A DNA stretch of 13,485 nt. It comes from a virus. Its lineage: Duplodnaviria; Heunggongvirae; Uroviricota; Caudoviricetes. The stretch spans positions 1 through 13,485 of IMG/VR virus record IMGVR_UViG_2703718857_000001, one strand, 5' to 3'. Below the pieces are notes generated by a model, which was not told where the DNA came from, did no database searches, and saw only the letters and a list, made by a program, of their open reading frames with translations. The stretch's first letter is position 1, and every line of letters begins with the position of its first letter. Made by a program: the position numbers and the translations under genes. Of the stretch, positions 1 to 13,485 are shown one piece after another.

Positions 1-318
1 ATGAAAAAGATAGCTGCTATATCATTAATTAGTATTTTTATTATGTCTGGTTGTGCTGTGCATAATGATGAGACAAGTATCGGTAAATTTGGTCTTGCAT
101 ATAAAAGTAATATTCAGCGTAAACTCGATAACCAATACTACACCGAAGCCGAAGCTTCTTTAGCCAGGGGCAGAATATCTGGTGCAGAAAATATAGTAAA
201 AAATGATGCAGCCCATTTCTGTGTTACTCAGGGCAAAAAAATGCAGATAGTTGACCTGAAGACAGAAGGTGCAGGATTACATGGCGTCGCTCGTCTGACA
301 TTCAAATGTGGAGAGTGA
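1..318 (+). CDS. Small lipoprotein, probably host-encoded and flanking the prophage
   Basis: ORF begins at window position 1 with ATG. N-terminal hydrophobic signal peptide ending in a lipobox-like MSGC. Lies left of the candidate att core, so likely host DNA. Function unknown. Confidence 0.6.
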   Translation: MKKIAAISLISIFIMSGCAVHNDETSIGKFGLAYKSNIQRKLDNQYYTEAEASLARGRISGAENIVKNDAAHFCVTQGKKMQIVDLKTEGAGLHGVARLTFKCGE

Positions 319-380
319 GAATATTTTTTGGTAAGCGTCAAATATGCGCGTTCTGGCTGTGCGTAGCCGGAACCTGTGGG

Positions 381-413
381 AGCACGATGCCGATAAGTGA
401 AAGGCATCGTGCT
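381..413. repeat. Perfect 11-bp inverted repeat (AGCACGATGCC / GGCATCGTGCT) with 11-nt loop
   Basis: Read directly from sequence. About 60 nt downstream of the lipoprotein stop. No T-run follows, so it is not a classical intrinsic terminator. Followed by AAGGAGG and a 10-codon mini-ORF (433..465). Confidence 0.5.
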
Positions 414-476
414 ATGAAGGAGGATTCTATCGATGTGGTCAATGGAAGACGGTTACCAGAGATAGGGCTTATGCAT

Positions 477-503
477 AAAAAATAAGCCCGTGTAAGGGAG
501 ATT
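477..503. other. attL: Candidate prophage attL core (P2-type 27-bp att core)
   Basis: Sequence AAAAAATAAGCCCGTGTAAGGGAGATT matches my recollection of the P2 attP/attB core. It sits about 80 bp beyond the 3' end of int, as expected for P2-like phages. Identity is recalled, not searched. Confidence 0.6.
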
Positions 504-582
504 TAGGGTGTCACCAGTAGGGGCTTTCAACGGTACAATGCGGGTTTGAGCGGCATAAATTACCACTGAAAGCCCTTAAACG

Positions 583-1596
583 TTACTCTACTGTGGACAC
601 TGTGTGGACACTCTCGACCTCAGTACCACCTCTTAGCGGATTAAGAGAAATGGCGTCCTGAAGGTACTCTGGCGCAAAATGAGCGTAAACCATAGTTTGC
701 TCAATCCGCGTGTGACCTAGTATCCGTTGTAGCGTGATAATACTTCCTCCATTAATCATGAAATGAGTGGCAAAGCTGTGCCTTAGTGCATGTGTAGCTT
801 GCCCCATTGGCAAATCCGGTTTTATTGCTTTCATTGTACGTCTGAAGCGAGGGTAATCAGCATCAGGGAATAAAAAACCTCGTTTGTTATCCGCGATCAT
901 TTTGGCAACAGCCTCTGAGATCGGGACGGTGCGTGGTTTGTTTGTTTTCGTTTTAACAAACGTGACGCGGTTATGGATGATATTTTCTGCTTTCAAACGA
1001 GCTGCTTCTCCCCAACGTGCTCCAGTACTCAGGCAAAGAATCGCAATCTTTTTGTTGTCGCCGTCAAGAGCAGCAAGCAGTAAGGCAATTTCTTCCTGCG
1101 TGAGATAGCCTGTGTCTGGTTTTTCCTCCTTAAGCCTTTTTGTCCCTCTGATAGGGTGCTCACCAAAGAATAACTCCGCTTCAATCAGGGCTGTAAACAT
1201 GCCGCTAATACATGTTAAATCACGATTGATACTCGAAGGTTTAATACCCTGACTTCTTCGGGTGGCGCAGTACTGGCTGATAAGCGATTTCGTAATTTGA
1301 AATGCGCATGGGTCATTCGTTATTTTTGTGAAGATTTCAATTTTCCCAAGATTAGATTTCCCATGCTCTTCGTGTTTACCCTTTAAATCCCACCAGATCT
1401 GTGTCAGCTCCGACAGACGTCGCTTGTCTGTTGGTTTTGATAGCCATTCTTTATTGTGGTGGTTGTACAACGTGTATTTCTCGAAAGCGACAGCTTCGCT
1501 TTTCTTATCAAACTTCCTACGGATGCGTTTTCCATTACGTCCAGTAGGGCGGATGTCCACTTCATATCGACCATCATCGAGTTTTTTGATTGCCAT
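583..1596 (-). CDS. int: Tyrosine recombinase / phage integrase (P2 Int-like, 337 aa)
   Basis: 337-aa ORF. Tyrosine recombinase box II HxLRHSFATH and catalytic Tyr context MVYAHF. N-terminus MAIKKLDDGRYEVDIRP is P2-Int-like. RBS GGAGGG upstream of ATG on minus strand. Position at the prophage end next to the att core. Confidence 0.93.
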   Translation of the reverse strand: MAIKKLDDGRYEVDIRPTGRNGKRIRRKFDKKSEAVAFEKYTLYNHHNKEWLSKPTDKRRLSELTQIWWDLKGKHEEHGKSNLGKIEIFTKITNDPCAFQITKSLISQYCATRRSQGIKPSSINRDLTCISGMFTALIEAELFFGEHPIRGTKRLKEEKPDTGYLTQEEIALLLAALDGDNKKIAILCLSTGARWGEAARLKAENIIHNRVTFVKTKTNKPRTVPISEAVAKMIADNKRGFLFPDADYPRFRRTMKAIKPDLPMGQATHALRHSFATHFMINGGSIITLQRILGHTRIEQTMVYAHFAPEYLQDAISLNPLRGGTEVESVHTVSTVE

Positions 1597-1650
1597 CAGA
1601 AAACCCTCCGAGTGGTGTGTTTTTTTGCGACTACTAATCGCTTTTTTCGT

Positions 1651-1671
1651 GGTGGCTGAAATTTAGCCACC
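1651..1671. repeat. Perfect 7-bp inverted repeat GGTGGCT-N7-AGCCACC between C and int
   Basis: Read directly. Lies in the C-int intergenic region (1597..1711). No T-run follows on the minus strand, so it is not a terminator. Candidate protein-binding or RNA structure. Confidence 0.4.
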
Positions 1672-1711
1672 AATAGTAGGCACTTGTGATGAATATATTC
1701 ACGATGAATTG

Positions 1712-2011
1712 TTAACCAGTCTTTTGACCGGAGTGGGGCGACGTTGTTTCGTTTTGCCCAAAGTGTGCGAGAGCGGGCGCAATTTGCCCGGACTCAGGAG
1801 CGATCTGATTGGTCATGAACCATAAAGTGTATTTGGTGAATTGTGGGGTCTGCAGGATGTTCATCATGACATCTGTTGGAGGTGTTGAACGACCACTTTC
1901 ATAGTAACTCAGCGTGCCATACGGAACCCCTGTTAAATCAGCAAGTTGTTGTCTGCTCAAATACTCTGATTTTCGCATTAAGACTATCTTCTCGCTTATC
2001 GTGTTTGACAT
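1712..2011 (-). CDS. C: Immunity repressor (P2 C-like, 99 aa)
   Basis: 99-aa ORF directly upstream of int and co-oriented with it, divergent from cox. Size and position match P2 C. The sequence looks P2-C-like from memory. Confidence 0.85.
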   Translation of the reverse strand: MSNTISEKIVLMRKSEYLSRQQLADLTGVPYGTLSYYESGRSTPPTDVMMNILQTPQFTKYTLWFMTNQIAPESGQIAPALAHFGQNETTSPHSGQKTG

Positions 2012-2060
2012 GGTGTTTAGATCTCAATAGTATTTAGTTTAGATGTAGATTGTTTAGTGC
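2004..2060 (+). promoter_or_regulatory. Early promoter (Pe-like) with C-repressor operator direct repeats
   Basis: TTGACA at 2004..2009, 18-nt spacer, TAGTAT at 2028..2033, oriented toward cox. Exact 8-bp direct repeat GTTTAGAT at 2015..2022 and 2037..2044 (22 bp apart) flanks the -10. Additional GTAGAT / GTTTAGT copies follow. Confidence 0.55.
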
Positions 2061-2083
2061 TTGGATGTGGGCACTAAAAGGCA

Positions 2084-2089
2084 TTATAA
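2084..2089 (-). promoter_or_regulatory. Candidate -10 (TATAAT on minus strand) of a leftward repressor promoter (Pc-like), convergent with Pe
   Basis: Perfect TATAAT on the minus strand (complement of ATTATA at 2084..2089). The -35 is weak (TTGCGT-like, suboptimal spacing). Placement rests on the P2 face-to-face promoter arrangement. Confidence 0.35.
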
Positions 2090-2125
2090 GACATTAAACG
2101 CAATTCATGAGGGCTAGAGGACGAC

Positions 2126-2401
2126 ATGAGCAAGCAAGTAACACTCATGACTGATGCGATTCCTTATCAGGAGTTCGCAAAACTAATAGGAAAATCGACA
2201 GGAGCGGTTCGTCGGATGATCGATAAAGGAAAGCTGCCTGTAATTGATATGACCGATCCACAATCAGCTTCAGGTCGTGCAGGTGAATATTGGGTATACC
2301 TTCCGGCATGGAATAACGGACTAAAACTGGCTTATGAAAGCCGCCCTAAAGAGATTCGTGACGGCTGGTTGATGTGGTTAGGTCTCGGTGAACCACGTTA
2401 A
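2126..2401 (+). CDS. cox: Excisionase / early-promoter repressor (P2 Cox-like, 91 aa)
   Basis: 91-aa ORF, first gene of the rightward early operon, divergent from C. Size and position match P2 Cox. Confidence 0.85.
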   Translation: MSKQVTLMTDAIPYQEFAKLIGKSTGAVRRMIDKGKLPVIDMTDPQSASGRAGEYWVYLPAWNNGLKLAYESRPKEIRDGWLMWLGLGEPR

Positions 2402-2411
2402 GGAGAACCGT

Positions 2412-2582
2412 ATGAATGAGCCTCGTTGTATTGCTCAGTTACTGCGTAACGAAAGCCCCAGGGCGATTGACTTCACCATCACCCACGGTAAGGGGCGTAA
2501 GGGAATCATTATCCGCACCAAAAAACAGAGTCCGTTAAAAAAGGCTCTGACCTTTCTGAAAAGCCGGAGGGTATGGAAATGA
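2412..2582 (+). CDS. Small hypothetical early protein (P2 orf78-like)
   Basis: RBS AAGGAG at 2400..2405 followed by ATG at 2412. The longer ORF from 2388 overlaps the cox 3' end and lacks an RBS. Basic small protein. Its stop overlaps the start of B. Confidence 0.5.
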   Translation: MNEPRCIAQLLRNESPRAIDFTITHGKGRKGIIIRTKKQSPLKKALTFLKSRRVWK

Positions 2583-3079
2583 CAGTGATGACGCTCAATC
2601 TCGTTGAAAAACAGCCAGCAGCTATGCGCCGGATAATTGGCAAGCATCTTGCCGTCCCTCGCTGGCAGGATACATGTGATTATTATAATCAGATGATGGA
2701 GCGCGAACGGCTAACGGTTTGCTTTCATGCACAGTTAAAACAGCGTCACGCAACGATGCGTTTTGAAGAAATGAACGACGTCGAACGTGAACGGCTGGTT
2801 TGTGCAATTGATGAATTGCGTGGGGCATTCTCAAAACGCCGTCAGGTCGGTGCAAGTGAGTATGCATATATTAGTTTTTTAACAGTCAGCCAGCGACGTA
2901 CTTTATTTATGCACGCACGACTGACAGAAAAAGAATTCAACCAGCCGTACTGGCGAATTAATGAAGAATCATGTTACTGGCGTGATGCTTTATTCCGTGC
3001 ATTACGTGAATTATTCAGTCTGTTTGAGTATGCACCGACAATTCTGACGTCGGTAAAACCAGAGCAATATCTGCATTAA
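2579..3079 (+). CDS. B: Replication protein B (P2 gpB-like, helicase-loader-type function)
   Basis: 166-aa ORF if started at ATG 2579 (GGAGG at 2564..2568); 168 aa from 2573. Position between cox and A matches P2 B. Confidence 0.8.
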   Translation: MTVMTLNLVEKQPAAMRRIIGKHLAVPRWQDTCDYYNQMMERERLTVCFHAQLKQRHATMRFEEMNDVERERLVCAIDELRGAFSKRRQVGASEYAYISFLTVSQRRTLFMHARLTEKEFNQPYWRINEESCYWRDALFRALRELFSLFEYAPTILTSVKPEQYLH

Positions 3080-3142
3080 ATAATTAACCAGAGTTTTTAA
3101 CGCACTTAATCGTGCGGGGCTTCTTTTTGCCTGGAGAAAGTC

Positions 3143-3367
3143 ATGCATACAGTTTCTGAAAATCAGTGCGGTAAATACGCATTACTGCTGCAACAGGCCA
3201 GAACCGAAGCACAGGCCGACGCTGCGACGCGCTTTTCTTCTCATCTTGACGCCATGATTCGCCATATCACAAAGGCGGAGTTATCCCGCGTGGAGATAGT
3301 CGAGCTGCTCAGTCAGGAGTCGGAAAAATTTCACAATATCGGATTGTCTCGCGGGGAGGTGCTTTGA
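3143..3367 (+). CDS. Hypothetical early protein (P2 orf80-like)
   Basis: 74-aa ORF in early operon, start preceded by GGAGAAAG. Stop overlaps the next start (ATGA). Confidence 0.55.
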
Positions 3368-3669
3368 TGTCCTGTTCTCATTCAGTTGTATTACTGAATA
3401 ACGCCTTAAAAATCGCCGTTATGGAAAATGGTGATTTATCTCTTATTCAACTTTGTCTTGATAAAGAAAAACGCGACATAACTGAATCTGTTATCGCGAT
3501 TTATCAGAATGAATTAAACCTCCTGTCTGATGTGGTCAATTTACTTGTTAAACGCGCTGTATTCCACAAGCAAATTTCCTCCGTGGATGAACTGACAAAA
3601 TTAACGACAGAAATCGTCAGCTATTGCGCTGATGAATTTAAGAAACTGAACGACAAAAGGAACTGGTAA
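3364..3669 (+). CDS. Hypothetical early protein (P2 orf81-like)
   Basis: 101-aa ORF, translationally coupled on both sides. AT-richer codon usage than its neighbours. Confidence 0.55.
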
Positions 3670-3893
3670 TGCCGGACAACGTAGATTTCATTCAGGAACA
3701 ACAGGCTGAATTACTGGAGCGCCAGATTAACGCGGCAAGGGTAAAACATTGCGGTGTTTCTGCGCTGGTTTGCGAAGAGTGTGACGTGCCAATACCTGCT
3801 GCCCGTCGTGCGGCTTATCCGTCAGCCACGCGTTGTGTTTCCTGTCAGTCAGTCTTTGAAGCAAAAAACAAACATTACCGGAGAACGGCATGA
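3669..3893 (+). CDS. DksA/TraR-family C4 zinc-finger protein (P2 orf82-like)
   Basis: CxxC-x17-CxxC motif (CEEC...CVSC) typical of DksA/TraR zinc fingers. 74 aa. Coupled to flanking ORFs. Confidence 0.7.
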   Translation: MPDNVDFIQEQQAELLERQINAARVKHCGVSALVCEECDVPIPAARRAAYPSATRCVSCQSVFEAKNKHYRRTA

Positions 3894-4165
3894 GTATTCG
3901 TATTGAAATTGGCGAACGTTATGTCGTTACCAGTGACAGCTTTCAGTTTATTCTCCACGAGAAAAAGAGAGCGGAAAGCGGTAAAAACGCCGGTCAGGAA
4001 TGGCTGTCGGTGGTTGGTTATTACCCGAAATTAAGCCAGCTCGTTTCCGGCATGATGCATCACGATATTCTGACCGGAAGCGCAAAGTCTTTTGCTGATT
4101 TAAACGCGCAGGTTGAGCAACTCAGCAAGCGTTGTTCAGAGGCTTTTGGCTCATATGGCCGTTAA
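3890..4165 (+). CDS. Hypothetical early protein (P2 orf83-like)
   Basis: 91-aa ORF immediately upstream of A, overlapping the A start. Confidence 0.55.
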   Translation: MSIRIEIGERYVVTSDSFQFILHEKKRAESGKNAGQEWLSVVGYYPKLSQLVSGMMHHDILTGSAKSFADLNAQVEQLSKRCSEAFGSYGR

Positions 4166-6278
4166 AGCCTCCGGGCGTTTTGTCCCTCCATCAGCATTTG
4201 CCGCAGGCACCGGTAAGGCGTTTACCGGTGCTTATGCATGGAACGCGCCACGCGAGGCTGTCGGGCGCGAAAGACCCCTTACACGTGACGAGATGCGTCA
4301 GGTGCAAGGTGTTTTATCCACGATTAACCGCCTGCCTTACTTTTTGCGCTCGCTGTTTACTTCACGCTATGACTACATCCGGCGCAATAAAAGCCCGGTG
4401 CACGGGTTTTATTTCCTCACATCCACTTTTCAGCGTCGTTTATGGCCGCGCATTGAGCGCGTGAATCAGCGCCATGAAATGAACACCGACGCGTCGTTGC
4501 TGTTTCTGGCAGAGCGTGACCATTATGCGCGTCTGCCGGGGATGAATGACAAGGAACTGAAAAAGTTTGCCGCCCGTATCTCATCGCAGCTTTTCATGAT
4601 GTATGAGGAACTCTGCGATGCATGGGTTGATGCACATGGCGAGAAAGAATCGCTGTTTACGGATGAGGCTCAGGCGCATCTGTATGGTCATGTTGCTGGC
4701 GCTGCACGAGCTTTCAATATTTCCCCTCTCTACTGGAAAAAATACCGTAAAGGACAGATGACCACGAGGCAGGCATATTCTGCCATTGCCCGTCTGTTTA
4801 ACGATGAGTGGTGGACTCATCAGCTTAAAGGTCAGCGTATGCGCTGGCATGAGGCGTTACTGATTGCTGTCGGGGAGGTGAATAAAGACCGTTCTCCTTA
4901 TGCCAGTAAACATGCCATTCGTGATGTGCGTGCGCGCCGCCAGGCAAATCTGGAATTTCTTAAATCGTGTGACCTTGAAAACAGGGAAACCGGCGAGCGC
5001 ATCGACCTTATCAGTAAGGTGATGGGAAGTATTTCTAATCCTGAAATTCGCCGGATGGAGCTGATGAACACCATTGCCGGTATTGAGCGTTACGCCGCCG
5101 CAGAGGGTGATGTGGGGATGTTTATCACGCTGACCGCGCCGTCAAAGTATCACCCGACACGTCAGGTCGGAAAAGGCGAAAGTAAAACCGTCCAGCTAAA
5201 TCACGGCTGGAACGATGAGGCATTTAATCCAAAGGATGCGCAGCGTTATCTCTGCCGCATCTGGAGCCTGATGCGCACGGCATTCAAGGATAATGATTTA
5301 CAGGTCTACGGTTTGCGTGTCGTCGAGCCACACCACGACGGAACGCCGCACTGGCATATGATGCTTTTTTGTAATCCACGTCAGCGTAACCAGATTATCG
5401 AAACCATGCGTCGCTACGCGCTCAAAGAGGATGGCGACGAAAGAGGAGCCGAGCGAAACCGTTTTCAGGCGAAACACCTTAACCGGGGCGGTGCTGCGGG
5501 GTATATCGCGAAATACATTTCAAAAAATATCGACGGCTATGCACTGGATGGTCAGCTCGATAACGATACCGGCAGACCTCTGAAAGATACTGCCGCGGCT
5601 GTTACTGCATGGGCGTCAACGTGGCGCATCCCGCAATTTAAAACGGTTGGTCTGCCGACAATGGGGGCTTACCGTGAACTACGCAAATTGCCTCGCGGCG
5701 TCAGCATTGCTGATGAGTTTGACGAACGCGTCGAGGCTGCACGCGCTGCCGCAGACAGTGGCGATTTTGCGTTGTATATCAGTGCGCAGGGTGGGGCAAA
5801 TGTTCCGCGCGATTGCCAGACTGTCAGAGTCGCCCGTAGCCCGTCGGATGAAGTTAACGAGTACGAGGAAGAAGTCGAGAGAGTGGTCGGCATTTACGCG
5901 CCGCATCTCGGCGCGCGTCATATTCATATCACCAGAACGACGGACTGGCGCATTGTTCCGAAAGTTCCGGTCGTGGAGCCTTTAACTTTAAAAAGCGGCA
6001 TCGCCGCGCCTCGGAGTCCTGTCAATAACTGTGGAAAGCTCACCGGTGGTGATACTTCGTTACCGGCTCCCACACCTTCTGAGCACGCCGCAGCAGTGCT
6101 TAATCTGGTAGATGACGGTGTTATCGAATGGAATGACCCGGAGGTCTTGAAAGTGCTTAATCTGGCATTGAAAATAGAAGCATCACGTAAATGTACAAAC
6201 AAAGGAGACACACGAGCAGGCATAGTTGGCGAGTCAACCGCGATTTTCAATGTACAGGATGCTGATAATCAACAATGA
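4155..6278 (+). CDS. A: Rolling-circle replication initiator / endonuclease (P2 gpA-like, HUH superfamily)
   Basis: Start likely ATG 4155 (MAVKASGRF...); the track ORF from 4113 begins at a TTG inside orf83. HUH-like motif PHWHMML and twin-tyrosine motif GYIAKYISK, typical of phiX174-A/P2-A type Rep proteins. 707 aa. Confidence 0.9.
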   Translation: MAVKASGRFVPPSAFAAGTGKAFTGAYAWNAPREAVGRERPLTRDEMRQVQGVLSTINRLPYFLRSLFTSRYDYIRRNKSPVHGFYFLTSTFQRRLWPRIERVNQRHEMNTDASLLFLAERDHYARLPGMNDKELKKFAARISSQLFMMYEELCDAWVDAHGEKESLFTDEAQAHLYGHVAGAARAFNISPLYWKKYRKGQMTTRQAYSAIARLFNDEWWTHQLKGQRMRWHEALLIAVGEVNKDRSPYASKHAIRDVRARRQANLEFLKSCDLENRETGERIDLISKVMGSISNPEIRRMELMNTIAGIERYAAAEGDVGMFITLTAPSKYHPTRQVGKGESKTVQLNHGWNDEAFNPKDAQRYLCRIWSLMRTAFKDNDLQVYGLRVVEPHHDGTPHWHMMLFCNPRQRNQIIETMRRYALKEDGDERGAERNRFQAKHLNRGGAAGYIAKYISKNIDGYALDGQLDNDTGRPLKDTAAAVTAWASTWRIPQFKTVGLPTMGAYRELRKLPRGVSIADEFDERVEAARAAADSGDFALYISAQGGANVPRDCQTVRVARSPSDEVNEYEEEVERVVGIYAPHLGARHIHITRTTDWRIVPKVPVVEPLTLKSGIAAPRSPVNNCGKLTGGDTSLPAPTPSEHAAAVLNLVDDGVIEWNDPEVLKVLNLALKIEASRKCTNKGDTRAGIVGESTAIFNVQDADNQQ

Positions 6279-6399
6279 TAGCTATTGTGACTATGCTAAC
6301 CATATGAATCTATTGTGTGATTATGAGTAATGACTTTTTCTAATATTTGATTTTTAATGTAGTAACTTAGCTAATTTTAAAATTTGTAAAAGGATGTTT

Positions 6400-7647
6400 A
6401 TGTCGATTTATCAAGGTGGTAACAAGTTAAATGAGGATGATTTTCGTTCTCACGTTTATTCCTTGTGTCAATTAGATAATGTTGGCGTTCTGTTAGGTGC
6501 TGGTGCTTCTGTCGGTTGTGGTGGGAAAACGATGAAAGATGTATGGAAATCGTTTAAGCAAAACTACCCTGAGCTTTTGGGAGCACTTATTGATAAATAT
6601 CTTCTGGTTTCGCAAATTGATTCTGATAACAATTTGGTCAATGTTGAACTTTTGATAGATGAAGCAACTAAATTTCTTTCTGTAGCTAAAACTAGACGAT
6701 GTGAAGATGAAGAGGAGGAATTCAGGAAGATATTAAGTTCATTATATAAAGAGGTTACGAAGGCTGCATTATTAACAGGAGAACAGTTTAGAGAGAAAAA
6801 TCAGGGTAAAAAAGATGCGTTTAAATATCACAAAGAGTTAATTTCAAAATTAATTTCAAATAGACAGCCCGGTCAGTCGGCTCCGGCAATTTTTACAACA
6901 AATTATGATTTGGCCTTAGAGTGGGCTGCAGAAGATTTAGGAATACAGTTGTTTAATGGTTTTTCTGGGCTACATACACGGCAGTTTTATCCCCAGAATT
7001 TTGATTTGGCTTTCAGAAATGTAAATGCGAAGGGCGAAGCAAGATTCGGACATTATCATGCGTATCTCTATAAATTACATGGCTCACTTACGTGGTATCA
7101 AAATGATAGCTTGACTGTTAACGAAGTTAGTGCATCTCAAGCATATGATGAATATATTAATGACATAATCAATAAAGATGACTTTTATCGCGGTCAACAT
7201 TTGATTTATCCAGGGGCGAATAAATATAGCCATACAATCGGCTTCGTTTATGGAGAGATGTTTAGACGTTTTGGGGAGTTTATTTCGAAGCCTCAAACAG
7301 CGTTGTTCATAAATGGGTTTGGTTTCGGTGATTATCATATAAATAGAATAATATTAGGCGCGTTACTGAATCCATCTTTCCATGTTGTTATATATTATCC
7401 TGAATTGAAAGAAGCAATTACCAAAGTAAGTAAGGGTGGCGGTTCGGAAGCTGAGAAAGCTATTGTTACTTTAAAAAATATGGCTTTCAATCAAGTAACT
7501 GTAGTTGGGGGAGGAAGCAAGGCATATTTTAATAGTTTCGTAGAACATCTACCATACCCTGTGCTCTTTCCACGAGATAATATTGTTGATGAGTTGGTTG
7601 AAGCAATTGCTAATCTTTCTAAAGGAGAAGGTAATGTCCCTTTTTAA
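6400..7647 (+). CDS. SIR2-like (sirtuin-fold) protein, predicted NAD+-consuming effector of a SIR2-HerA-type defense pair
   Basis: Motifs seen: GAGAS (about 6496), TTNYD (about 6894), KLHGS with candidate catalytic His (about 7074), GFGFGD (about 7320). No CxxC zinc module, as in defense-type SIR2 domains. Start 6400 preferred over 6394 on RBS spacing (AAAGGA at 6388..6393). Low GC. Confidence 0.85.
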   Translation: MSIYQGGNKLNEDDFRSHVYSLCQLDNVGVLLGAGASVGCGGKTMKDVWKSFKQNYPELLGALIDKYLLVSQIDSDNNLVNVELLIDEATKFLSVAKTRRCEDEEEEFRKILSSLYKEVTKAALLTGEQFREKNQGKKDAFKYHKELISKLISNRQPGQSAPAIFTTNYDLALEWAAEDLGIQLFNGFSGLHTRQFYPQNFDLAFRNVNAKGEARFGHYHAYLYKLHGSLTWYQNDSLTVNEVSASQAYDEYINDIINKDDFYRGQHLIYPGANKYSHTIGFVYGEMFRRFGEFISKPQTALFINGFGFGDYHINRIILGALLNPSFHVVIYYPELKEAITKVSKGGGSEAEKAIVTLKNMAFNQVTVVGGGSKAYFNSFVEHLPYPVLFPRDNIVDELVEAIANLSKGEGNVPF

Positions 7648-9466
7648 ACTTACTGAAATCTCGGCTATTGGATACGTTGTAGGATTAGAAGGGGAAAGAA
7701 TTAGGATAAACCTGCATGAGGGGTTGCAAGGCAGATTAGCATCGCATAGAAAGGGGGTGAGCTCAGTAACGCAACCAGGAGATCTTATTGGGTTCGATGC
7801 AGGTAATATATTAGTTGTCGCAAGAGTGACAGATATGGCATTTGTTGAAGCGGATAAAGCGCATAAGGCAAATGTAGGCACATCTGATTTAGCTGATATA
7901 CCTCTAAGACAAATTATCGCCTATGCAATTGGCTTTGTGAAAAGGGAGTTAAATGGTTATGTTTTTATATCAGAAGATTGGCGCTTACCTGCATTGGGTT
8001 CTTCTGCTGTTCCTTTGACTTCAGATTTTTTGAACATCATTTATAGTATTGATAAAGAAGAACTCCCAAAAGCGGTTGAATTAGGTGTGGATTCTCGAAC
8101 TAAAACCGTTAAGATATTTGCAAGTGTTGATAAATTATTGTCGCGACACTTAGCCGTTCTTGGTAGTACAGGATATGGTAAATCAAATTTCAATGCTTTG
8201 TTAACGAGGAAGGTTTCTGAAAAATACCCTAACTCAAGAATAGTTATTTTTGACATAAATGGTGAATACGCGCAAGCTTTTACAGGTATTCCAAATGTAA
8301 AGCACACTATTCTAGGGGAATCCCCAAATGTTGATAGTTTGGAAAAAAAGCAGCAAAAGGGTGAGCTATATAGTGAAGAGTATTATTGTTATAAAAAGAT
8401 ACCATATCAGGCATTAGGTTTTGCTGGGTTAATTAAATTATTAAGACCAAGTGATAAAACACAATTGCCCGCATTAAGAAATGCATTAAGTGCAATTAAT
8501 CGGACTCATTTTAAAAGCCGTAATATTTACTTGGAAAAAGATGATGGTGAAACTTTTCTTTTGTATGATGATTGTCGTGACACAAATCAAAGTAAATTGG
8601 CTGAGTGGTTGGATTTATTAAGGCGTAGACGTCTTAAAAGAACGAATGTATGGCCACCGTTTAAAAGTTTAGCGACTTTGGTTGCTGAATTTGGATGTGT
8701 AGCTGCTGACCGTTCTAATGGAAGTAAACGTGACGCGTTTGGTTTTAGTAACGTGTTGCCATTGGTAAAAATCATACAACAACTTGCAGAGGATATAAGA
8801 TTTAAATCTATTGTTAATTTAAATGGAGGGGGTGAGCTAGCAGATGGTGGAACGCATTGGGATAAAGCTATGAGTGATGAAGTTGATTACTTCTTTGGTA
8901 AGGAAAAAGGACAAGAAAATGATTGGAATGTTCATATAGTTAATATGAAAAATTTGGCACAAGATCATGCTCCAATGTTACTTAGTGCATTGTTGGAGAT
9001 GTTTGCTGAGATACTATTTAGACGTGGGCAGGAACGTTCGTATCCTACGGTACTTTTGTTGGAAGAAGCGCATCATTACCTGCGTGACCCTTATGCTGAA
9101 ATTGACTCACAGATTAAAGCATATGAACGACTTGCTAAAGAAGGTAGGAAATTCAAATGCTCTTTAATTGTCAGTACTCAGCGACCCTCAGAGCTTTCTC
9201 CTACTGTTTTGGCAATGTGTTCAAACTGGTTTTCGTTACGTTTGACTAATGAAAGAGATTTACAGGCTCTCAGATATGCAATGGAAAGCGGTAATGAACA
9301 AATCTTAAAACAAATATCAGGTTTACCAAGAGGTGATGCTGTTGCATTTGGTTCTGCATTTAATTTGCCTGTAAGAATTTCAATTAATCAAGCAAGGCCA
9401 GGGCCAAAATCTTCAGATGCTGTTTTTTCTGAAGAATGGGCTAATTGTACAGAATTACGTTGTTAA
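7634..9466 (+). CDS. HerA/FtsK-like P-loop ATPase (DUF87-type), partner of the SIR2-like protein
   Basis: Walker A GSTGYGKS (about 8162..8185). Walker B hhhhEEAH as VLLLEEAHH (about 9058..9084). STQRPSEL sensor-like motif. Start ATG 7634 has strong RBS AAGGAG at 7622..7627 and overlaps the SIR2 stop (7645..7647). 610 aa. Low GC. Confidence 0.85.
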   Translation: MSLFKLTEISAIGYVVGLEGERIRINLHEGLQGRLASHRKGVSSVTQPGDLIGFDAGNILVVARVTDMAFVEADKAHKANVGTSDLADIPLRQIIAYAIGFVKRELNGYVFISEDWRLPALGSSAVPLTSDFLNIIYSIDKEELPKAVELGVDSRTKTVKIFASVDKLLSRHLAVLGSTGYGKSNFNALLTRKVSEKYPNSRIVIFDINGEYAQAFTGIPNVKHTILGESPNVDSLEKKQQKGELYSEEYYCYKKIPYQALGFAGLIKLLRPSDKTQLPALRNALSAINRTHFKSRNIYLEKDDGETFLLYDDCRDTNQSKLAEWLDLLRRRRLKRTNVWPPFKSLATLVAEFGCVAADRSNGSKRDAFGFSNVLPLVKIIQQLAEDIRFKSIVNLNGGGELADGGTHWDKAMSDEVDYFFGKEKGQENDWNVHIVNMKNLAQDHAPMLLSALLEMFAEILFRRGQERSYPTVLLLEEAHHYLRDPYAEIDSQIKAYERLAKEGRKFKCSLIVSTQRPSELSPTVLAMCSNWFSLRLTNERDLQALRYAMESGNEQILKQISGLPRGDAVAFGSAFNLPVRISINQARPGPKSSDAVFSEEWANCTELRC

Positions 9467-9623
9467 TTACCTGATGTACATGGCTAGTGCAAGTTGGTAG
9501 CGCATGTCTATATGCATTTATTTGCATGTGTTTTATTGAGTGAGCGCACAAGCTTGATGACCCGACAGGTATGTATTTAGACTGAATTTACACCTGCATT
9601 AAAACCGCCCCACGAAGCGGGCG

Positions 9624-9642
9624 GGCGAGGCGGGGAAAGCAC
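9624..9642. other. cos: cos cohesive-end sequence (P2-type 19-nt)
   Basis: GGCGAGGCGGGGAAAGCAC matches my recollection of the P2 cohesive end. It lies in the expected position between the cargo slot and Q, within a GC-rich region with short direct repeats (GCGGTGGTG at 9652 and 9748). Confidence 0.65.
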
Positions 9643-9784
9643 TGCGCGCTGGCGGTGGTGCTGATTTTATTTTTTCAGCGTCTGAGCGCGTCGTGGCGGC
9701 GTTTAGATTTTGCGCCGGGGCGTTGCTGTGTCTGCGGGCTGTTTTGTGCGGTGGTGAGCGTGTGAGGGCGTGATGACTGGGTGT

Positions 9785-9806
9785 AAAAAAGCCGCCCGCA
9801 GGCGGC
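9785..9806 (-). terminator. Rho-independent terminator downstream of Q (minus strand)
   Basis: On the minus strand: GCCGCC-TGCG-GGCGGC hairpin followed by TTTTTT, immediately 3' of the Q stop (9812..9814). Confidence 0.7.
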
Positions 9807-9811
9807 GATGT

Positions 9812-10846
9812 TCAGCCGTTGTCAGTGTCCAGTGAGTAGTTTTTAAAGCGGATGACCTCCTGACCGAGCCAGCCGTTTATCTCGCGGATCCTGTCCTGTA
9901 ACGGGATAAGCTCATTGCGGACAAAGACCTTTGCCACTTTCTCAATATCACCCAGCGACCCGACGTTCTCCGGCTTGCCGCCCATCAACTGAAAGGGGAT
10001 GCGGTGCGCGTCCAGCAGGTCAGCGGCGCTGGCTTTTTTGATATTAAAAAAATCGTCCTTCGTTGCCACTTCACTGAGCGGGATAATTTTAATGCCGTCG
10101 GCTTTTCCCTGCGGGGCATAGAGAAACAGATTTTTAAAGTTGTTGCGGCCTTTCGACTTGACCATGTTTTCGCGAAGCATTTCGATATCGTTGCGATCCT
10201 GCACGGCATCGGTAACGTACATGATGTATCCGGCATGAGCGCCATTTTCGTAATACTTGCGGCGGAACAGCGTGGCCGACTCATTCAGCCAGGCAGAGTT
10301 AAGGGCGCTGAGATATTCCGGCAGGCCGTACAGCTCCTGATTAATATCCGGCTCCAGCAGGTGAAACACGGAGCCGGGCGCGAAAGGTGTCGGCTCATGG
10401 AAGGACGGCACCCACCAGTAAACATCCTCTTCCACGCCACGGCGGGTATATTTTGCCGGTGAGGTTTCCAGTCTGATGACCTTACCGGTGGTGCTGTAAC
10501 GCTTTTCCAGAAACGCATTACCGAACACCAGAAAATCCAGCACAAAGCGGCTGAAATCCTGCTGGGAAAGCCACGGATGCGGAATAAACGTTGAAGCCAG
10601 AATATTGCGTTTAACGTAAATCGGCGAGCTGTGATGCACGGCAGCACGCAGGCTTTTTGCCAGACCGGTAAAGCTGACCGGCGGCTCATACCATCTGCCG
10701 TTACTGATGCATTCGACGTAATCCAGAATGTCACGGCGGTCGAGCACCGGCACCGGCTCACCAAAGGTGAATGCCTCCATTTTCGGGGCGCTGGCAGTCA
10801 TTTTTTTTGCCGCAGGTTGCGGTGTTTTCCCTTTTTTCTTGCTCAT
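9812..10846 (-). CDS. Q: Portal protein (P2 gpQ-like, 344 aa)
   Basis: 344-aa ORF adjacent to cos, co-oriented with and coupled to P (ATGA overlap at 10844..10848). Size and position match P2 Q. Confidence 0.9.
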   Translation of the reverse strand: MSKKKGKTPQPAAKKMTASAPKMEAFTFGEPVPVLDRRDILDYVECISNGRWYEPPVSFTGLAKSLRAAVHHSSPIYVKRNILASTFIPHPWLSQQDFSRFVLDFLVFGNAFLEKRYSTTGKVIRLETSPAKYTRRGVEEDVYWWVPSFHEPTPFAPGSVFHLLEPDINQELYGLPEYLSALNSAWLNESATLFRRKYYENGAHAGYIMYVTDAVQDRNDIEMLRENMVKSKGRNNFKNLFLYAPQGKADGIKIIPLSEVATKDDFFNIKKASAADLLDAHRIPFQLMGGKPENVGSLGDIEKVAKVFVRNELIPLQDRIREINGWLGQEVIRFKNYSLDTDNG

Positions 10847-12303
10847 CAGTAAAACTCCAGAATGGTGGATGTCAGCGGGGTGCTGATACCGGCGGTGAGT
10901 GGCTCATTTAACAGGGCGTGCATGGTCGCCCAGGCGAGGTCGGCGTGGCTGGCTTCCTCGCTGCGGCTGGCCTCATAGGTGGCGCTGCGTCCGCTGCTGG
11001 TCATGGTCTTGCGGATAGCCATAAACGAGCTGGTGATGTCGGTGGCGCTGACGTCATATTCCAGACAGCCACGACGGATAACGTCTTTTGCCTTGAGCAC
11101 CATTGCGGTTTTCATTTCCGGTGTGTAGCGGATATCGCGCGCGGCGGGATAGAACGAGCGCACGAGCTGGAACACGCCGACACCGAGGCCGGTGGCATCA
11201 ATACCGATGTATTCGACGTTGTATTTTTCGGTGAGTTTGCGGATGGATTCAGCCTGGGTGGCAAAGTCCATGCCTTTCCACTGGTGACGCTCAAGTATTC
11301 TGAATTTGCCACCGGCCACCACCGGCGGTGCCAGCACCACGCATCCGGCGCTGTCGCCACGGTGTGACGGGTCGTAACCAATCCATACCGGGCGGGAGCC
11401 GAACGGATTGGCGGCAAACGGTGCATAGTCTTCCCATTCTTCCAGCGTGTCGACCATGCAGCGTTGCAGCTCCTCGAACGGGAACACCGATGCCTTGTCG
11501 TCAACAAATTCACACATGAACAGGTTTTTAAAATCGTCGGCGCTGTTTTCGCGTTTGAGCTGCTCAATGTCGAACAGCGTGCAGCCGCCTTTCAGGGCGT
11601 CCTCAATGGTGACAATCTGCCGCCACTGGCCGTCCGCACAGAGAAGCCCACCGGCAAGGGCGTTATGACTGACGTCGATTTCCACACGTTCGGCGGCGCT
11701 GGCGCGTCCCCGGTTAAACAGTTCACCCGACCAGAACGGGTAGGCGTCGTGCGCCAGCGTGGACGGGGTGGAGAAATAGGTCGAGCGCAGGTGGCTCTGT
11801 GAGGCCATACCGGATGCCACCTTACGCAGTACCTGAAAATTCGGGATCCAGAAAATCTCATCGACGTACAGGTCGCCGTTATGGCTCTGTGCGGTGTTGG
11901 AGTTGGTGCCGAGAAAAATCAGTTTTGCGCCGTTATTACCCAGGACAATCGGGTCACCGGTCAGGTCAACGTCAACCAGCCGGGCAAAGGCGATGATGTA
12001 TTCGCGGAACACATACGCCTGCGTTTTACTGGCCGACAGAAAAATCTGGTTATGACCGGTTTTCAGGGCGCGCAGCAGCGCCTCGCGGGAAAAATAAAAC
12101 GTCGCGCCAATCTGGCGGGATTTCAGGATATCGCGGATGCGGTGCTCAAGCCCGGCGCGATAAATGCCACGCTTTACCTTTACCCTGGCCCCGAAAGCGA
12201 ACCCATTCGCGCTGCCGCCGTGAAAAAACTGGAAGCGTATATCACGGCACAGCACCGGCTGGGGCGCGACATCCGACTGTCTGCCATTTATGCCGCTTTG
12301 CAT
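10846..12303 (-). CDS. P: Terminase large (ATPase) subunit, P2 gpP-like; probably 5'-truncated, with the first ~45 codons of this ORF not genuine P sequence
   Basis: Terminase-type deviant Walker A-like motif KSRQIGAT (compare T4 gp17 SRQLGKT, lambda gpA KSARVGYS). 485-aa ORF versus ~590 aa recalled for P2 P. Its 5' end (about 12160..12303) is antisense to a protein-like plus-strand reading frame. Confidence 0.75.
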   Translation of the reverse strand: MQSGINGRQSDVAPQPVLCRDIRFQFFHGGSANGFAFGARVKVKRGIYRAGLEHRIRDILKSRQIGATFYFSREALLRALKTGHNQIFLSASKTQAYVFREYIIAFARLVDVDLTGDPIVLGNNGAKLIFLGTNSNTAQSHNGDLYVDEIFWIPNFQVLRKVASGMASQSHLRSTYFSTPSTLAHDAYPFWSGELFNRGRASAAERVEIDVSHNALAGGLLCADGQWRQIVTIEDALKGGCTLFDIEQLKRENSADDFKNLFMCEFVDDKASVFPFEELQRCMVDTLEEWEDYAPFAANPFGSRPVWIGYDPSHRGDSAGCVVLAPPVVAGGKFRILERHQWKGMDFATQAESIRKLTEKYNVEYIGIDATGLGVGVFQLVRSFYPAARDIRYTPEMKTAMVLKAKDVIRRGCLEYDVSATDITSSFMAIRKTMTSSGRSATYEASRSEEASHADLAWATMHALLNEPLTAGISTPLTSTILEFY

Positions 12304-12357
12304 GTGGAAGGCGTGCAGCGTGTCGAACTGGCTGCACCGCTGGCCGCTCTTATGTAG
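12181..12357 (+). pseudogene. 3' fragment of a phage structural gene (baseplate J-like C-terminus suspected), lacking its 5' part
   Basis: Protein-like frame ...YPGPESEPIRAAAVKKLEAYITAQHRLGRDIRLSAIYAALHVEGVQRVELAAPLAALM*. It has no own start or RBS, and upstream in frame it runs into the antisense of P. Family assignment from memory only. Confidence 0.4.
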
Positions 12358-12359
12358 AC

Positions 12360-12503
12360 CAGAGTAAAAACGAATATCACATCAGCCTGACGGGCGGTAC
12401 TGCGCCGGGGACACAACTTGATCGCCAGTTACAGGATGCGCTCGAAAAATACGAGCGGGATAAACGTGCGCGTGCCCGTGCCAGCATGATGCATGACGGT
12501 TAA
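12360..12503 (+). pseudogene. 3' fragment of the gene upstream of U (tape-measure T C-terminus suspected), in a different frame from the preceding fragment
   Basis: Protein-like frame QSKNEYHISLTGGTAPGTQLDRQLQDALEKYERDKRARARASMMHDG*, ending 15 nt before the U start with AAGGAGG in between. Upstream in this frame is not protein-like. Confidence 0.35.
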
Positions 12504-12517
12504 GGAGGTGACGAAAA

Positions 12518-12997
12518 ATGATGCTCGCGTTAGGTATGTTTGTTTTTATGCGCCAGACGCTGCCACACCAGACCATGCAGCGTGAATCAGATTATCGCTG
12601 GCCGTCAAATTCCCGTATCGGTAAACGGGATGCCTACCAGTTTCTCGGTGTGGGTGAGGAAAACATCACGCTTGCCGGTGTGCTTTATCCCGAACTGACC
12701 GGCGGCAAGCTGACGATGGCCACGCTCAGGCTGATGGCAGAGGAAGGCCGGGCGTGGCCGTTGCTGGATGGCACCGGCATGATTTACGGCATGTATGTCA
12801 TCAGCAGGGTGAGTGAAACAGGGAGTATTTTCTTTGCAGACGGCACACCCCGGAAAATTGATTTTACGCTGTCGCTCACCCGCGTTGATGAATCACTGGC
12901 CGCGCTTTATGGCGATATCGGTAAACAGGCGGAATCGCTCATCGGTAAGGCTGGCAGTATGGCGACTAAATTCACGGATATGACGGGGGCGGGATAA
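12518..12997 (+). CDS. U: Tail protein U (P2 gpU-like, 159 aa)
   Basis: 159-aa ORF with strong RBS AAGGAGG. Stop overlaps the start of the next gene (TAATG). Position upstream of D matches the P2 tail operon. Confidence 0.85.
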   Translation: MMLALGMFVFMRQTLPHQTMQRESDYRWPSNSRIGKRDAYQFLGVGEENITLAGVLYPELTGGKLTMATLRLMAEEGRAWPLLDGTGMIYGMYVISRVSETGSIFFADGTPRKIDFTLSLTRVDESLAALYGDIGKQAESLIGKAGSMATKFTDMTGAG

Positions 12998-13485
12998 TGC
13001 TGGATGCACTGACATTTGATGCAGGCAGTACGCTGACGCCGGATTACATGCTGATGCTCGACAGCAGGGATATTACCGGCAATATCAGCGACCGTCTGAT
13101 GAGCATGACCCTGACGGATAACCGGGGCTTTGAGGCTGACCAGCTTGATATTGAACTGAACGATGCCGACGGGCAGGTCGGGCTGCCGGTTCGTGGCGCT
13201 GTCCTGACGGTGTATATCGGCTGGAAAGGTTTTGCCCTGGTATGCAAAGGGAAATTTACCGTTGATGAGGTTGAACACCGGGGCGCACCGGATGTGGTCA
13301 CCATCCGCGCCCGGAGTGCAGATTTTCGCGGGACGCTCAATTCCCGCCGTGAAGGCTCCTGGCATGACACCACGCTCGGTGCGATTGTTGAGGCGATAGC
13401 CTCCCGTAACAGGCTGGAAGCCAGTGTCGCTCCGTCACTGGCCGGAATTAAAATCCCGCACATCGACCAGTCGCAGGAGTCTGAT
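12997..13485 (+). CDS. D: Tail protein D (P2 gpD-like), 5' portion only; continues beyond window end
   Basis: Open frame from ATG 12997 to the window edge (163 codons, no stop). N-terminus MLDALTFDAGSTL... is P2-D-like from memory. Follows U as in P2. Confidence 0.85.
   Translation, partial: MLDALTFDAGSTLTPDYMLMLDSRDITGNISDRLMSMTLTDNRGFEADQLDIELNDADGQVGLPVRGAVLTVYIGWKGFALVCKGKFTVDEVEHRGAPDVVTIRARSADFRGTLNSRREGSWHDTTLGAIVEAIASRNRLEASVAPSLAGIKIPHIDQSQESD

What the first reader, a model, noticed from the sequence alone, without database searches (positions are those of the whole stretch)
6279..9623. Compositional island: the cargo slot is far more AT-rich than the P2 backbone
Short hand counts give roughly 33-36% GC inside the SIR2/HerA genes against roughly 54-59% in flanking A and Q sequence. 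The boundaries fall at the A stop (double stop TGATAG at 6276..6281) and just before cos. This points to horizontal acquisition of the cassette into the conserved variable locus of P2-like phages, the same position where P2 carries the exclusion genes tin and old.
Basis: partly seen in the sequence, partly recalled or inferred. Interest (0 to 1): 0.6.

Follow-up and report, generated by a model that had tools for sequence, protein, structure and literature searches.

The report
P2 prophage defence slot carrying SIR2-HerA
The AT-rich stretch is real, but it is the already described variable "defence hotspot" of P2-like prophages, here holding the already solved E. coli SIR2-HerA (Nezha) anti-phage system, so it is a textbook case and not a discovery.

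Summary
The compositional island is real. GC is 36.6% in 6151-9594, against 53% in gene A and in Q and 57% further right (z = -17). GC3 is 25-28% in the cargo against 54-71% in the backbone. The edges need correcting. Homology to P2 stops at 6150, inside the A reading frame and 128 nt before its stop, and resumes at 9595, 29 nt before cos (9624-9642). The last 42 codons of A are therefore island DNA, and A lacks a roughly 95-residue C-terminal domain that 14 of 17 relatives keep.

The two cargo proteins are 100% identical to PDB chains of the E. coli SIR2-HerA (Nezha) complex. The slot is the gpA-gpQ hotspot of Rousset et al. 2022, whose Table S5B already lists SIR2+DUF87 there. Sixteen relatives with 16 other cargos, including P2 old/tin, all show 35-43% GC between 53-55% flanks, so low GC belongs to the slot's cargo in general.

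Exchange is shown directly. The island is 99.5-99.97% identical among carriers, while their adjacent cos-Q flanks differ by 0.4-5% and their A flanks by up to 3.5%. Only 20 of 2249 backbone-bearing E. coli genomes carry it.

Verdict: interpretation supported, already known, low interest.

The parts
4155..6278 (+). Replication initiator gene A, 707 aa. Positions 4155-6150 are conserved backbone (53% GC). The last 42 codons (6151-6278) are island DNA, and the conserved ~95-aa C-terminal domain of other P2-like A proteins is missing.
   Evidence: Pfam Phage_GPA E = 6e-124. 97.1% identical to P2 up to 6150. Tail comparison with 17 relatives. PGAP marks it 'missing C-terminus' in six carriers.
6013..6013 (+). 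Inferred position of the P2 ori nick site (P2 coordinate 29892), about 140 nt upstream of the left junction.
   Evidence: Coordinate transfer through the gap-free 97.85% alignment of window 476-6150 with P2 24355-30029 and the P2 annotation. Not tested further.
6147..6177 (+). Left junction zone. Nucleotide homology to P2 ends at 6150. An in-frame, AT-shifted remnant of A sequence continues to about 6176. A 14-nt exact copy (6152-6165) of 6095-6108 lies here.
6151..9594 (+). The compositional island (variable cargo segment), 3444 bp, 36.6% GC.
   Evidence: Likelihood changepoints at 6146 and 9604. Homology breaks at 6145-6159 and 9589-9596 against 17 relatives. Both junction segments occur only in the same 20 complete E. 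coli genomes.
6279..6399 (+). Allele-specific AT-rich leader (24% GC) upstream of SIR2. The cassette's own promoter is presumed to lie here but was not identified. Homology between SIR2-HerA alleles begins at 6388, the ribosome-binding region.
6400..7647 (+). SIR2 NADase gene (415 aa from MSIYQ; the listed ORF starts two codons earlier at 6394).
   Evidence: 100% identical over 415 aa to PDB 8j4u_A, also 8su9, 8sub, 8suw, 8sxx, 8uae, 8uaf. Pfam SIR2_2. PADLOC SIR2 E = 4e-190.
7634..9466 (+). HerA ATPase gene (610 aa). Its start overlaps the SIR2 stop by 14 nt, so the two form one operon.
   Evidence: 100% identical over 610 aa to PDB 8j4u_M. Pfam DUF87. PADLOC HerA E = 2e-277.
9467..9594 (+). 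Allele-specific 3' spacer between the HerA stop and the conserved cos-proximal sequence.
   Evidence: Found only in the 20 carrier genomes. No homology to P2.
9595..9655 (.). Conserved cos region. The 19-nt cohesive-end sequence is at 9624-9642, next to a G+C-rich hairpin at 9605-9624.
   Evidence: Matches P2 cosR/cosL. About 60 bp also match other sites in many E. coli genomes. Hairpin.
9812..10846 (-). Portal gene Q, the right-hand conserved flank (53% GC, GC3 65%). Its terminator-like hairpin is at 9791-9806.
   Evidence: Pfam Phage_portal. 97.4% identical to P2. Terminator scan and the P2 tQ annotation.
10846..12162 (-). Terminase gene P with its 5' end deleted. This is context showing that this particular prophage is a remnant.
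   Evidence: Homology to P2 1221-2537 only; a full P gene runs to P2 2993.

Best explanation
Window 6151-9594 is the cargo of the cos-proximal variable locus of a P2-like (Peduovirus) prophage integrated next to yegR in E. coli. This is the gpA-gpQ 'defence hotspot'. The cargo is a two-gene operon for the SIR2-HerA (Nezha) abortive-infection system. According to the literature, a HerA ATPase ring assembles with a SIR2 NADase ring, and on phage infection the complex depletes NAD+ (with ATPase, helicase and nuclease activities), so the infected cell stops growing before the phage completes its cycle.

The low GC is a shared property of the accessory genes that circulate through this slot. It does not mark this particular cassette. 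Cassettes are swapped between P2-like genomes by recombination in the conserved sequence on either side, namely the 3' part of A and the cos region. This leaves a near-identical island sitting in backbones that have diverged.

In this allele the left crossover or deletion fell inside A and removed A's C-terminal domain.

Shown here: the composition, the boundaries, the identity of the cargo, the variability of the slot, and the uncoupling of island and flank divergence. Inferred: the recombination mechanism, expression from a promoter in 6151-6399, and the defence function in this native context.
For: - Composition and codon usage.
- Flanks are 96-98% identical to P2 and about 100 phage records, with the middle differing in all of them. 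P2 has orf91/tin/old at the same place.
- Sixteen relatives with 16 different cargos all have 35-43% GC between 53-55% flanks. P2's A-stop-to-cos segment is 35.3%.
- SIR2 and HerA are 100% identical to PDB 8j4u and the 8su9 series. [quoted passage not shown]
- The hotspot is described in PMC9122126, whose Table S5B lists 'SIR2 | DUF87' as system 14 with 188 occurrences.
- The backbone is in 2249 of 5426 complete E. coli genomes, and this island is in 20.
- In 16 carriers the island is 99.5-99.97% identical. A is 96.5-100% and cos-Q is 95.0-99.6%. One carrier has a different integrase/immunity module.
- Four alleles (77-86% aa identity) all lie between A and cos in P2-like prophages, all at 36-40% GC.
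Against: - No experiment was done here, and expression and defence in the native prophage are not shown.
- No promoter stood out. The number of promoter-like hits in 6000-9900 equals the shuffled expectation.
- No isolated phage genome in the 50,697-record collection carries this cassette, and A is truncated, so transfer as a viable phage is not demonstrated.
- Higher divergence of the flanks could also come from the flanks recombining with other resident P2-like prophages, without any movement of the island. Both routes are recombinational uncoupling.
Confidence: 0.9

Rival explanations
1. The low GC marks a recent, one-off import from an AT-rich donor outside the P2 family, such as a low-GC bacterium or its plasmid. 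Under this view the composition simply has not yet drifted towards that of the host.
For: GC3 of 25-28% is far below the E. coli and P2 backbone values. The island is nearly identical among carriers, which fits a recent spread.
Against: Four alleles 14-23% diverged in protein sequence all sit in the same P2 slot and all remain at 36-40% GC. In Scandinavium the cargo proteins (86% identity) are as diverged as A, Q and P (78-84%), yet cargo GC3 is still 29-34% against 58-73% for the backbone. No plasmid has a HerA above about 40% identity, and no phage record has a close homologue. Every other cargo in the slot is equally AT-rich.
Confidence: 0.07
2. The island is a self-mobile element, such as a transposon, an integron-like cassette or an integrase-borne islet, that inserted into the A-cos interval.
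For: Sharp boundaries. A 14-nt exact direct repeat lies at the left junction.
Against: The island holds no transposase, integrase or recombinase ORF. Its only long ORFs are SIR2 and HerA. No terminal inverted repeats or flanking target duplication bracket 6151-9594, and both copies of the 14-nt repeat lie at the left end. The neighbouring leader and A tail differ between alleles, and inter-allele homology starts only at the SIR2 ribosome-binding site. PMC13586616 reports that transposable elements are almost absent from these hotspots.
Confidence: 0.02
3. The GC dip follows from the amino-acid composition or function of the two proteins and says nothing about their history.
For: The cargo proteins are somewhat richer in FYMINK residues (28.8% vs 25.1%) and poorer in GARP residues (23.7% vs 29.3%) than A/Q/P.
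Against: The largest difference is at synonymous third positions (GC3 25-28% vs 54-71%). The non-coding leader is 24% GC. Unrelated proteins in the same slot show the same low GC.
Confidence: 0.01

Closest known systems
P2 tin/old locus, i.e. the gpA-gpQ cos-proximal defence hotspot of P2-like phages (Rousset et al. 2022, PMC9122126; 2026 follow-up PMC13586616)
   Same: Same flanks (A on the left, cos and Q on the right), same position, same AT-rich composition (P2 35.3%, window 36.6%), and the same role as a slot for anti-phage cargo. SIR2+DUF87 is already listed there as system 14 with 188 occurrences.
   Different: The cargo genes differ and read in the opposite direction: P2 old/tin are on the minus strand, SIR2-HerA on the plus strand. 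In this allele the variable DNA starts 128 nt before the A stop and removes A's C-terminal domain.
E. coli SIR2-HerA / Nezha anti-phage system (PDB 8J4U, 8SU9, 8SUB, 8SUW, 8UAE, 8UAF)
   Same: Both proteins are identical residue for residue over their full lengths of 415 and 610 aa.
   Different: None at the protein level. This work adds only the native genomic context.
Other SIR2-HerA alleles in P2-like prophages (E. coli MB7671 and Combat13F7 types; Scandinavium lactucae V105_6)
   Same: Same slot, same gene order and overlap, same low GC (36-40%). Homology starts at the SIR2 ribosome-binding site.
   Different: 77-86% amino-acid identity. The leaders differ (54-202 nt) and so do the fates of A's C-terminus, which is full length in MB7671 and Scandinavium and truncated in Combat13F7 and the window.
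Other AT-rich accessory loci of P2 (orf30, Z/fun)
   Same: GC of 34-35% within a 53-57% backbone. Z/fun is annotated as a lysogenic-conversion gene.
   Different: They lie elsewhere in the genome and are absent from this window, because the late region is deleted here.

Membership tests
P2-like gpA-gpQ (cos-proximal) variable/defence hotspot | Left flank is the P2-type replication gene A | tested here: met
   Pfam Phage_GPA E = 6e-124. 97.1% nt identity to P2 A up to window 6150.
P2-like gpA-gpQ (cos-proximal) variable/defence hotspot | Right flank is cos followed by portal gene Q | tested here: met
   Exact 19-nt P2 cos at 9624-9642. Window 9624-12162 matches P2 1-2537 at 97.4%. Pfam Phage_portal.
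P2-like gpA-gpQ (cos-proximal) variable/defence hotspot | Close relatives with conserved flanks carry unrelated cargo in the interval | tested here: met
   16 relatives with 16 different cargos, flanks 96-98% identical.
P2-like gpA-gpQ (cos-proximal) variable/defence hotspot | Cargo provides anti-phage defence in its native lysogen | not testable with these tools
   Only inferred from 100% identity to the characterised system.
SIR2-HerA (Nezha) defence system | SIR2_2-domain protein encoded next to a HerA/DUF87 ATPase in one operon | tested here: met
   Pfam SIR2_2 and DUF87. PADLOC SIR2 and HerA models at 4e-190 and 2e-277. 14-nt gene overlap at 7634-7647.
SIR2-HerA (Nezha) defence system | Sequence membership in the experimentally characterised E. 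coli clade | tested here: met
   100% identity to PDB 8j4u chains A and M. PMC13434337 names 8J4U as Nezha.
SIR2-HerA (Nezha) defence system | NAD+ depletion and abortive infection on phage challenge | not testable with these tools
   Taken from the literature.
Self-mobile genomic islet (transposon or integrase-borne) | Own recombinase and terminal repeats or a target-site duplication bracketing the island | tested here: not met
   No such ORF in 6151-9594. No bracketing repeats.

The most novel reading that the evidence does not exclude
The slot may be hypervariable because it lies between the phage's two programmed DNA breaks. The A-protein nick at ori falls at about window 6013, 140-165 nt left of the junction. 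The terminase cut at cos falls at 9624-9642, 29 nt right of it. Break-stimulated recombination would then drive cassette exchange. Left crossovers recur at one point inside A: homology is lost right after the ALK/RLK codons, '..ATTAAAA.A', in three independent truncated-A variants. These crossovers sometimes remove A's conserved C-terminal domain, which would then have to be dispensable, since the 707-aa A sits in many otherwise complete prophages.
Probability: 0.2. Interest if true: 0.5.

Novelty: already known. Interest (0 to 1): 0.15.

Why it matters
It matters little as a discovery. The slot, its cargo diversity and this very cassette are published, and the two proteins have solved structures.

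It is useful as a clean worked example. Composition alone located the cargo of a phage defence hotspot to within about 10 bp of the homology breakpoints.

It also shows that low GC here is a stable property of the circulating accessory genes and does not date their arrival. The side observations could feed the open question of how these hotspots recombine. Those are the truncation of A, the recurrent breakpoint next to ori, and the near-identical island sitting in diverged backbones.

Tried and rejected
- Promoter scan of 6000-9900: 11 hits against 11.6 expected, with nothing convincing in the leader. No promoter is claimed.
- Rfam scan of the whole window: no family reached threshold.
- Repeat search for att-like or transposon ends bracketing the island: none found. 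It turned up only an unexplained 14-nt repeat, with both copies at the left junction.
- tblastn of HerA against phage records: only a 31%-identity partial match to a Blautia phage terminase. Against plasmids the best was about 40% identity. No outside donor was found.
- Scan of one genome per species: only two loci, one Scandinavium prophage and one probably mis-binned E. coli contig. The method finds close relatives only, so absence elsewhere is weak evidence.
- Literature searches for a function of the A C-terminal domain and for older statements on the GC of old/tin returned nothing usable. That older P2 papers noted the low GC of the non-essential genes is from memory only.
- tblastn of the conserved A tail against 6100-6420 in all frames: no frameshifted remnant beyond about 6189. 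The domain is therefore deleted, not merely out of frame.
- Search for the window's own late-region deletion junctions in complete E. coli genomes: none found.
Full report
**Observation.** A 400-nt sliding window shows GC of 0.52-0.56 across 4000-6200. It falls to 0.33-0.40 across 6200-9600 and returns to 0.51-0.58 to the end of the window. The values by segment are below.

| Segment | GC |
|---|---|
| A core, 4155-6150 | 53.3% |
| A tail, 6151-6278 | 40.6% |
| Leader, 6279-6393 | 24.3% |
| SIR2 | 36.0% |
| HerA | 37.2% |
| Finding's span, 6279-9623 | 36.7% |
| Q | 53.0% |
| 10847-13485 | 57.0% |
| Early block, 1-4154 | 44.6% |

The island against its A/late flanks gives z = -17.4. A two-changepoint likelihood fit places the edges at 6146 and 9604 and beats a single composition by 157 log units. 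The shift is strongest at synonymous sites. GC3 is 27.6% in SIR2 and 24.7% in HerA, against 54% in A, 65% in Q and 71% in P. Synonymous codon usage differs with chi-square 501 on 41 df.

**True boundaries.** BLAST against P2 (NC_001895) aligns window 476-6150 with P2 24355-30029 at 97.85%. It aligns 9595-9642 with the cosR end and 9624-12162 with P2 1-2537. Against 17 relatives, homology always stops at 6145-6159 and resumes at 9589-9596. The island is therefore 6151-9594.

The left edge lies inside the A reading frame, which runs from 4155 to 6278 (707 aa). The last 42 codons are island DNA. In 14 of 17 relatives A ends with a conserved domain of about 95 residues (…VVRALRGALK…RWELEALARG…DEW…). 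That domain is absent here, truncated differently in pro483, and truncated near the same point in two prophages with other cargo or another allele. A faint in-frame remnant of A sequence runs to about 6176, and nothing beyond that survives in any frame. NCBI's pipeline marks A as 'missing C-terminus' in all six carriers inspected.

**What the cargo is.** Two overlapping plus-strand genes fill the island. SIR2 (6400-7647) hits Pfam SIR2_2 and a PADLOC SIR2 model at 4e-190. HerA (7634-9466) hits DUF87 and a PADLOC HerA model at 2e-277. Both proteins are identical over their whole length to PDB chains 8j4u_A/M and the 8su9/8sub/8suw/8uae/8uaf series. PMC13434337 identifies 8J4U as the E. coli Sir2-HerA/Nezha system. 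[quoted passage not shown] The mechanism is taken from that literature and was not tested here.

**What the slot is.** P2 carries orf91, tin and old between the A stop and cos. Rousset et al. 2022 (PMC9122126) describe this interval between gpA and gpQ as a hotspot, with 1,650 gene arrangements in 18,150 occurrences. Their Table S5B lists 'SIR2 | DUF87' as system 14 with 188 occurrences, annotated as SIR2 + HerA. The representative in that table is a different allele, 77% identical to the window's HerA. A 2026 study (PMC13586616) confirms that many P2 defence systems lie in the GpA-GpQ hotspot. It reports rapid swapping of these loci without pseudogenisation and says the recombination process remains to be elucidated.

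**Survey done here.**
- The A-to-Q backbone matches in 2249 of 5426 complete E. coli genomes. Only 20 of them match across the whole query.
- A spread sample of the rest carries many other cargos. They include DUF7380, a single SIR2 protein, an ImmA/IrrE peptidase, reverse transcriptases, DprA, HEPN, a DEAD-box helicase, Dcm+ParB and PP2C plus kinases.
- About 100 phage records show the same pattern, and none holds this cassette.
- In 16 fetched relatives the variable segment is 35-43% GC between 53-55% flanks.
- P2's own A-stop-to-cos segment is 35.3%. P2 orf30 and Z/fun are 34-35%.
- Low GC is therefore general to P2 accessory cargo and not special to this cassette.

**Direct evidence for exchange.** Both junction segments (6140-6399 and 9440-9600) occur only in the same 20 genomes, so the island is a single unit with fixed ends. 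Across 16 carriers the island is 99.5-99.97% identical to the window. The adjacent A core is 96.5-100% identical and the cos-Q segment is 95.0-99.6%. One carrier has a different integrase and immunity module. Island and backbone are thus unlinked.

E. coli also holds two further alleles, about 73% identical at the nucleotide level, in 26 genomes. Scandinavium lactucae holds a fourth. One representative locus of each further allele was inspected, and all lie between A and cos of P2-like prophages, at 36-40% GC. Homology between alleles starts exactly at the SIR2 ribosome-binding site (window 6388) and ends 27 nt before the HerA stop, with different leaders and A tails.

In Scandinavium the cargo proteins are 86% identical to the window's. 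That is as diverged as A (82%), Q (78%) and P (84%). Even so, cargo GC3 stays at 29-34% against 58-73% in that backbone. The low GC has therefore persisted over substantial divergence and cannot be read as a sign of recent arrival.

**Rivals.**
- An outside low-GC donor is not supported. No plasmid exceeds about 40% HerA identity and no phage record has a close homologue.
- A self-mobile islet is not supported. The island has no recombinase gene and no bracketing repeats.
- A purely protein-level cause is contradicted by the GC3 values and by the 24% GC leader.

**Unresolved.**
- No promoter could be named. Promoter-like hits equal the shuffled expectation.
- No Rfam family matched.
- An exact 14-nt repeat, AGTGCTTAATCTGG, occurs at 6095-6108 and again at 6152-6165, the first bases of the island. 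My arithmetic gives roughly 0.03 such pairs expected by chance in this region.
- Three independently truncated A variants lose homology just after the same ALK/RLK codons. That point is about 165 nt downstream of the ori nick position transferred from the P2 annotation.
- The slot is thus bracketed by the phage's two programmed break sites. This is offered as a speculative reading only.

**Context of this particular copy.** The window's prophage is a remnant. P is cut at 12162 and is followed by a 188-bp fragment of gene J (12159-12346). The end of T, then U and the start of D follow at 12334-13485. This implies two deletions of about 9.4 and 10 kb relative to P2. No complete E. coli genome shares these junctions. 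Ten other assemblies encoding the identical HerA have the full late gene set, and the 707-aa A is called in five of them.

**Verdict.** Everything essential is already published, so novelty is 'already known' and interest is low.

Noticed in passing
window 10846-13485: This prophage is a deletion remnant. Terminase gene P is cut at 12162. A 188-bp fragment of baseplate gene J follows (12159-12346 = P2 11939-12126), then the end of T, U and the start of D (12334-13485 = P2 22127-23279). About 19 kb of head, lysis and tail genes are missing. The junctions overlap by 4 and 13 nt. No complete E. coli genome shares them.
   Followed up: partly
window 6151-6278 (end of gene A): A is 707 aa and lacks the ~95-residue C-terminal domain conserved in 14 of 17 relatives. 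NCBI annotation calls it a pseudogene. Even so, among ten other assemblies with the full late gene set, the same 707-aa A is called in five. Whether it still supports replication is unknown.
   Followed up: partly
window 6095-6108 and 6152-6165: An exact 14-nt direct repeat, AGTGCTTAATCTGG, has its second copy at the first bases of the island. Window 6147-6176 still aligns in frame with P2 A but carries AT-enriching changes. This may be a templated patch at the recombination junction. It remains unexplained.
   Followed up: partly
L026 (E. coli MB7671), L027 (E. coli Combat13F7), L007 (Scandinavium lactucae): Three further SIR2-HerA alleles (77-86% aa identity) occupy the same A-cos slot. The two E. 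coli alleles are in 26 complete genomes. Homology between alleles starts exactly at the SIR2 ribosome-binding site.
   Followed up: yes
L007 8040-10158: In the Scandinavium prophage about 2 kb lie between cos and Q. They include a 401-aa minus-strand ORF (8439-9644, 46.6% GC) with pentapeptide-like repeats followed by a glycosyltransferase-like region. This would be a second cargo site, on the other side of cos. The domain reading is by eye only.
   Followed up: no
L006 (contig JAEYGZ010000011.1, labelled 'Bacillota bacterium' MAG): The contig is 98.6% identical to window 5894-11727, so it is probably an Escherichia contig mis-binned into a Bacillota MAG. It joins cox-region sequence to the 3' end of A, deleting the equivalent of window 2335-5893.
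   Followed up: partly
window 9589-9655: The ~60-bp cos core matches many other single sites in E. coli genomes at 91-96% identity. One is next to a retron reverse transcriptase. These are probably cos sites of P4-like satellites.
   Followed up: no
window 1-4154: The yegR side, attL, int, C, cox, B and orf80-83 block is only 44.6% GC. The ORF at 3364-3669 (Orf81/DUF5405 homologue) is 36% GC. The 'P2 backbone' therefore has at least two compositional levels. attL corresponds to about 476-502 by alignment with the P2 attP core.
   Followed up: partly
L022 (E. coli strain O18, NZ_CP007275): Another carrier is decaying independently. It has a fusion of truncated gpO to truncated gpJ, a frameshifted DUF5405 gene, and altered HerA and portal lengths.
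   Followed up: no
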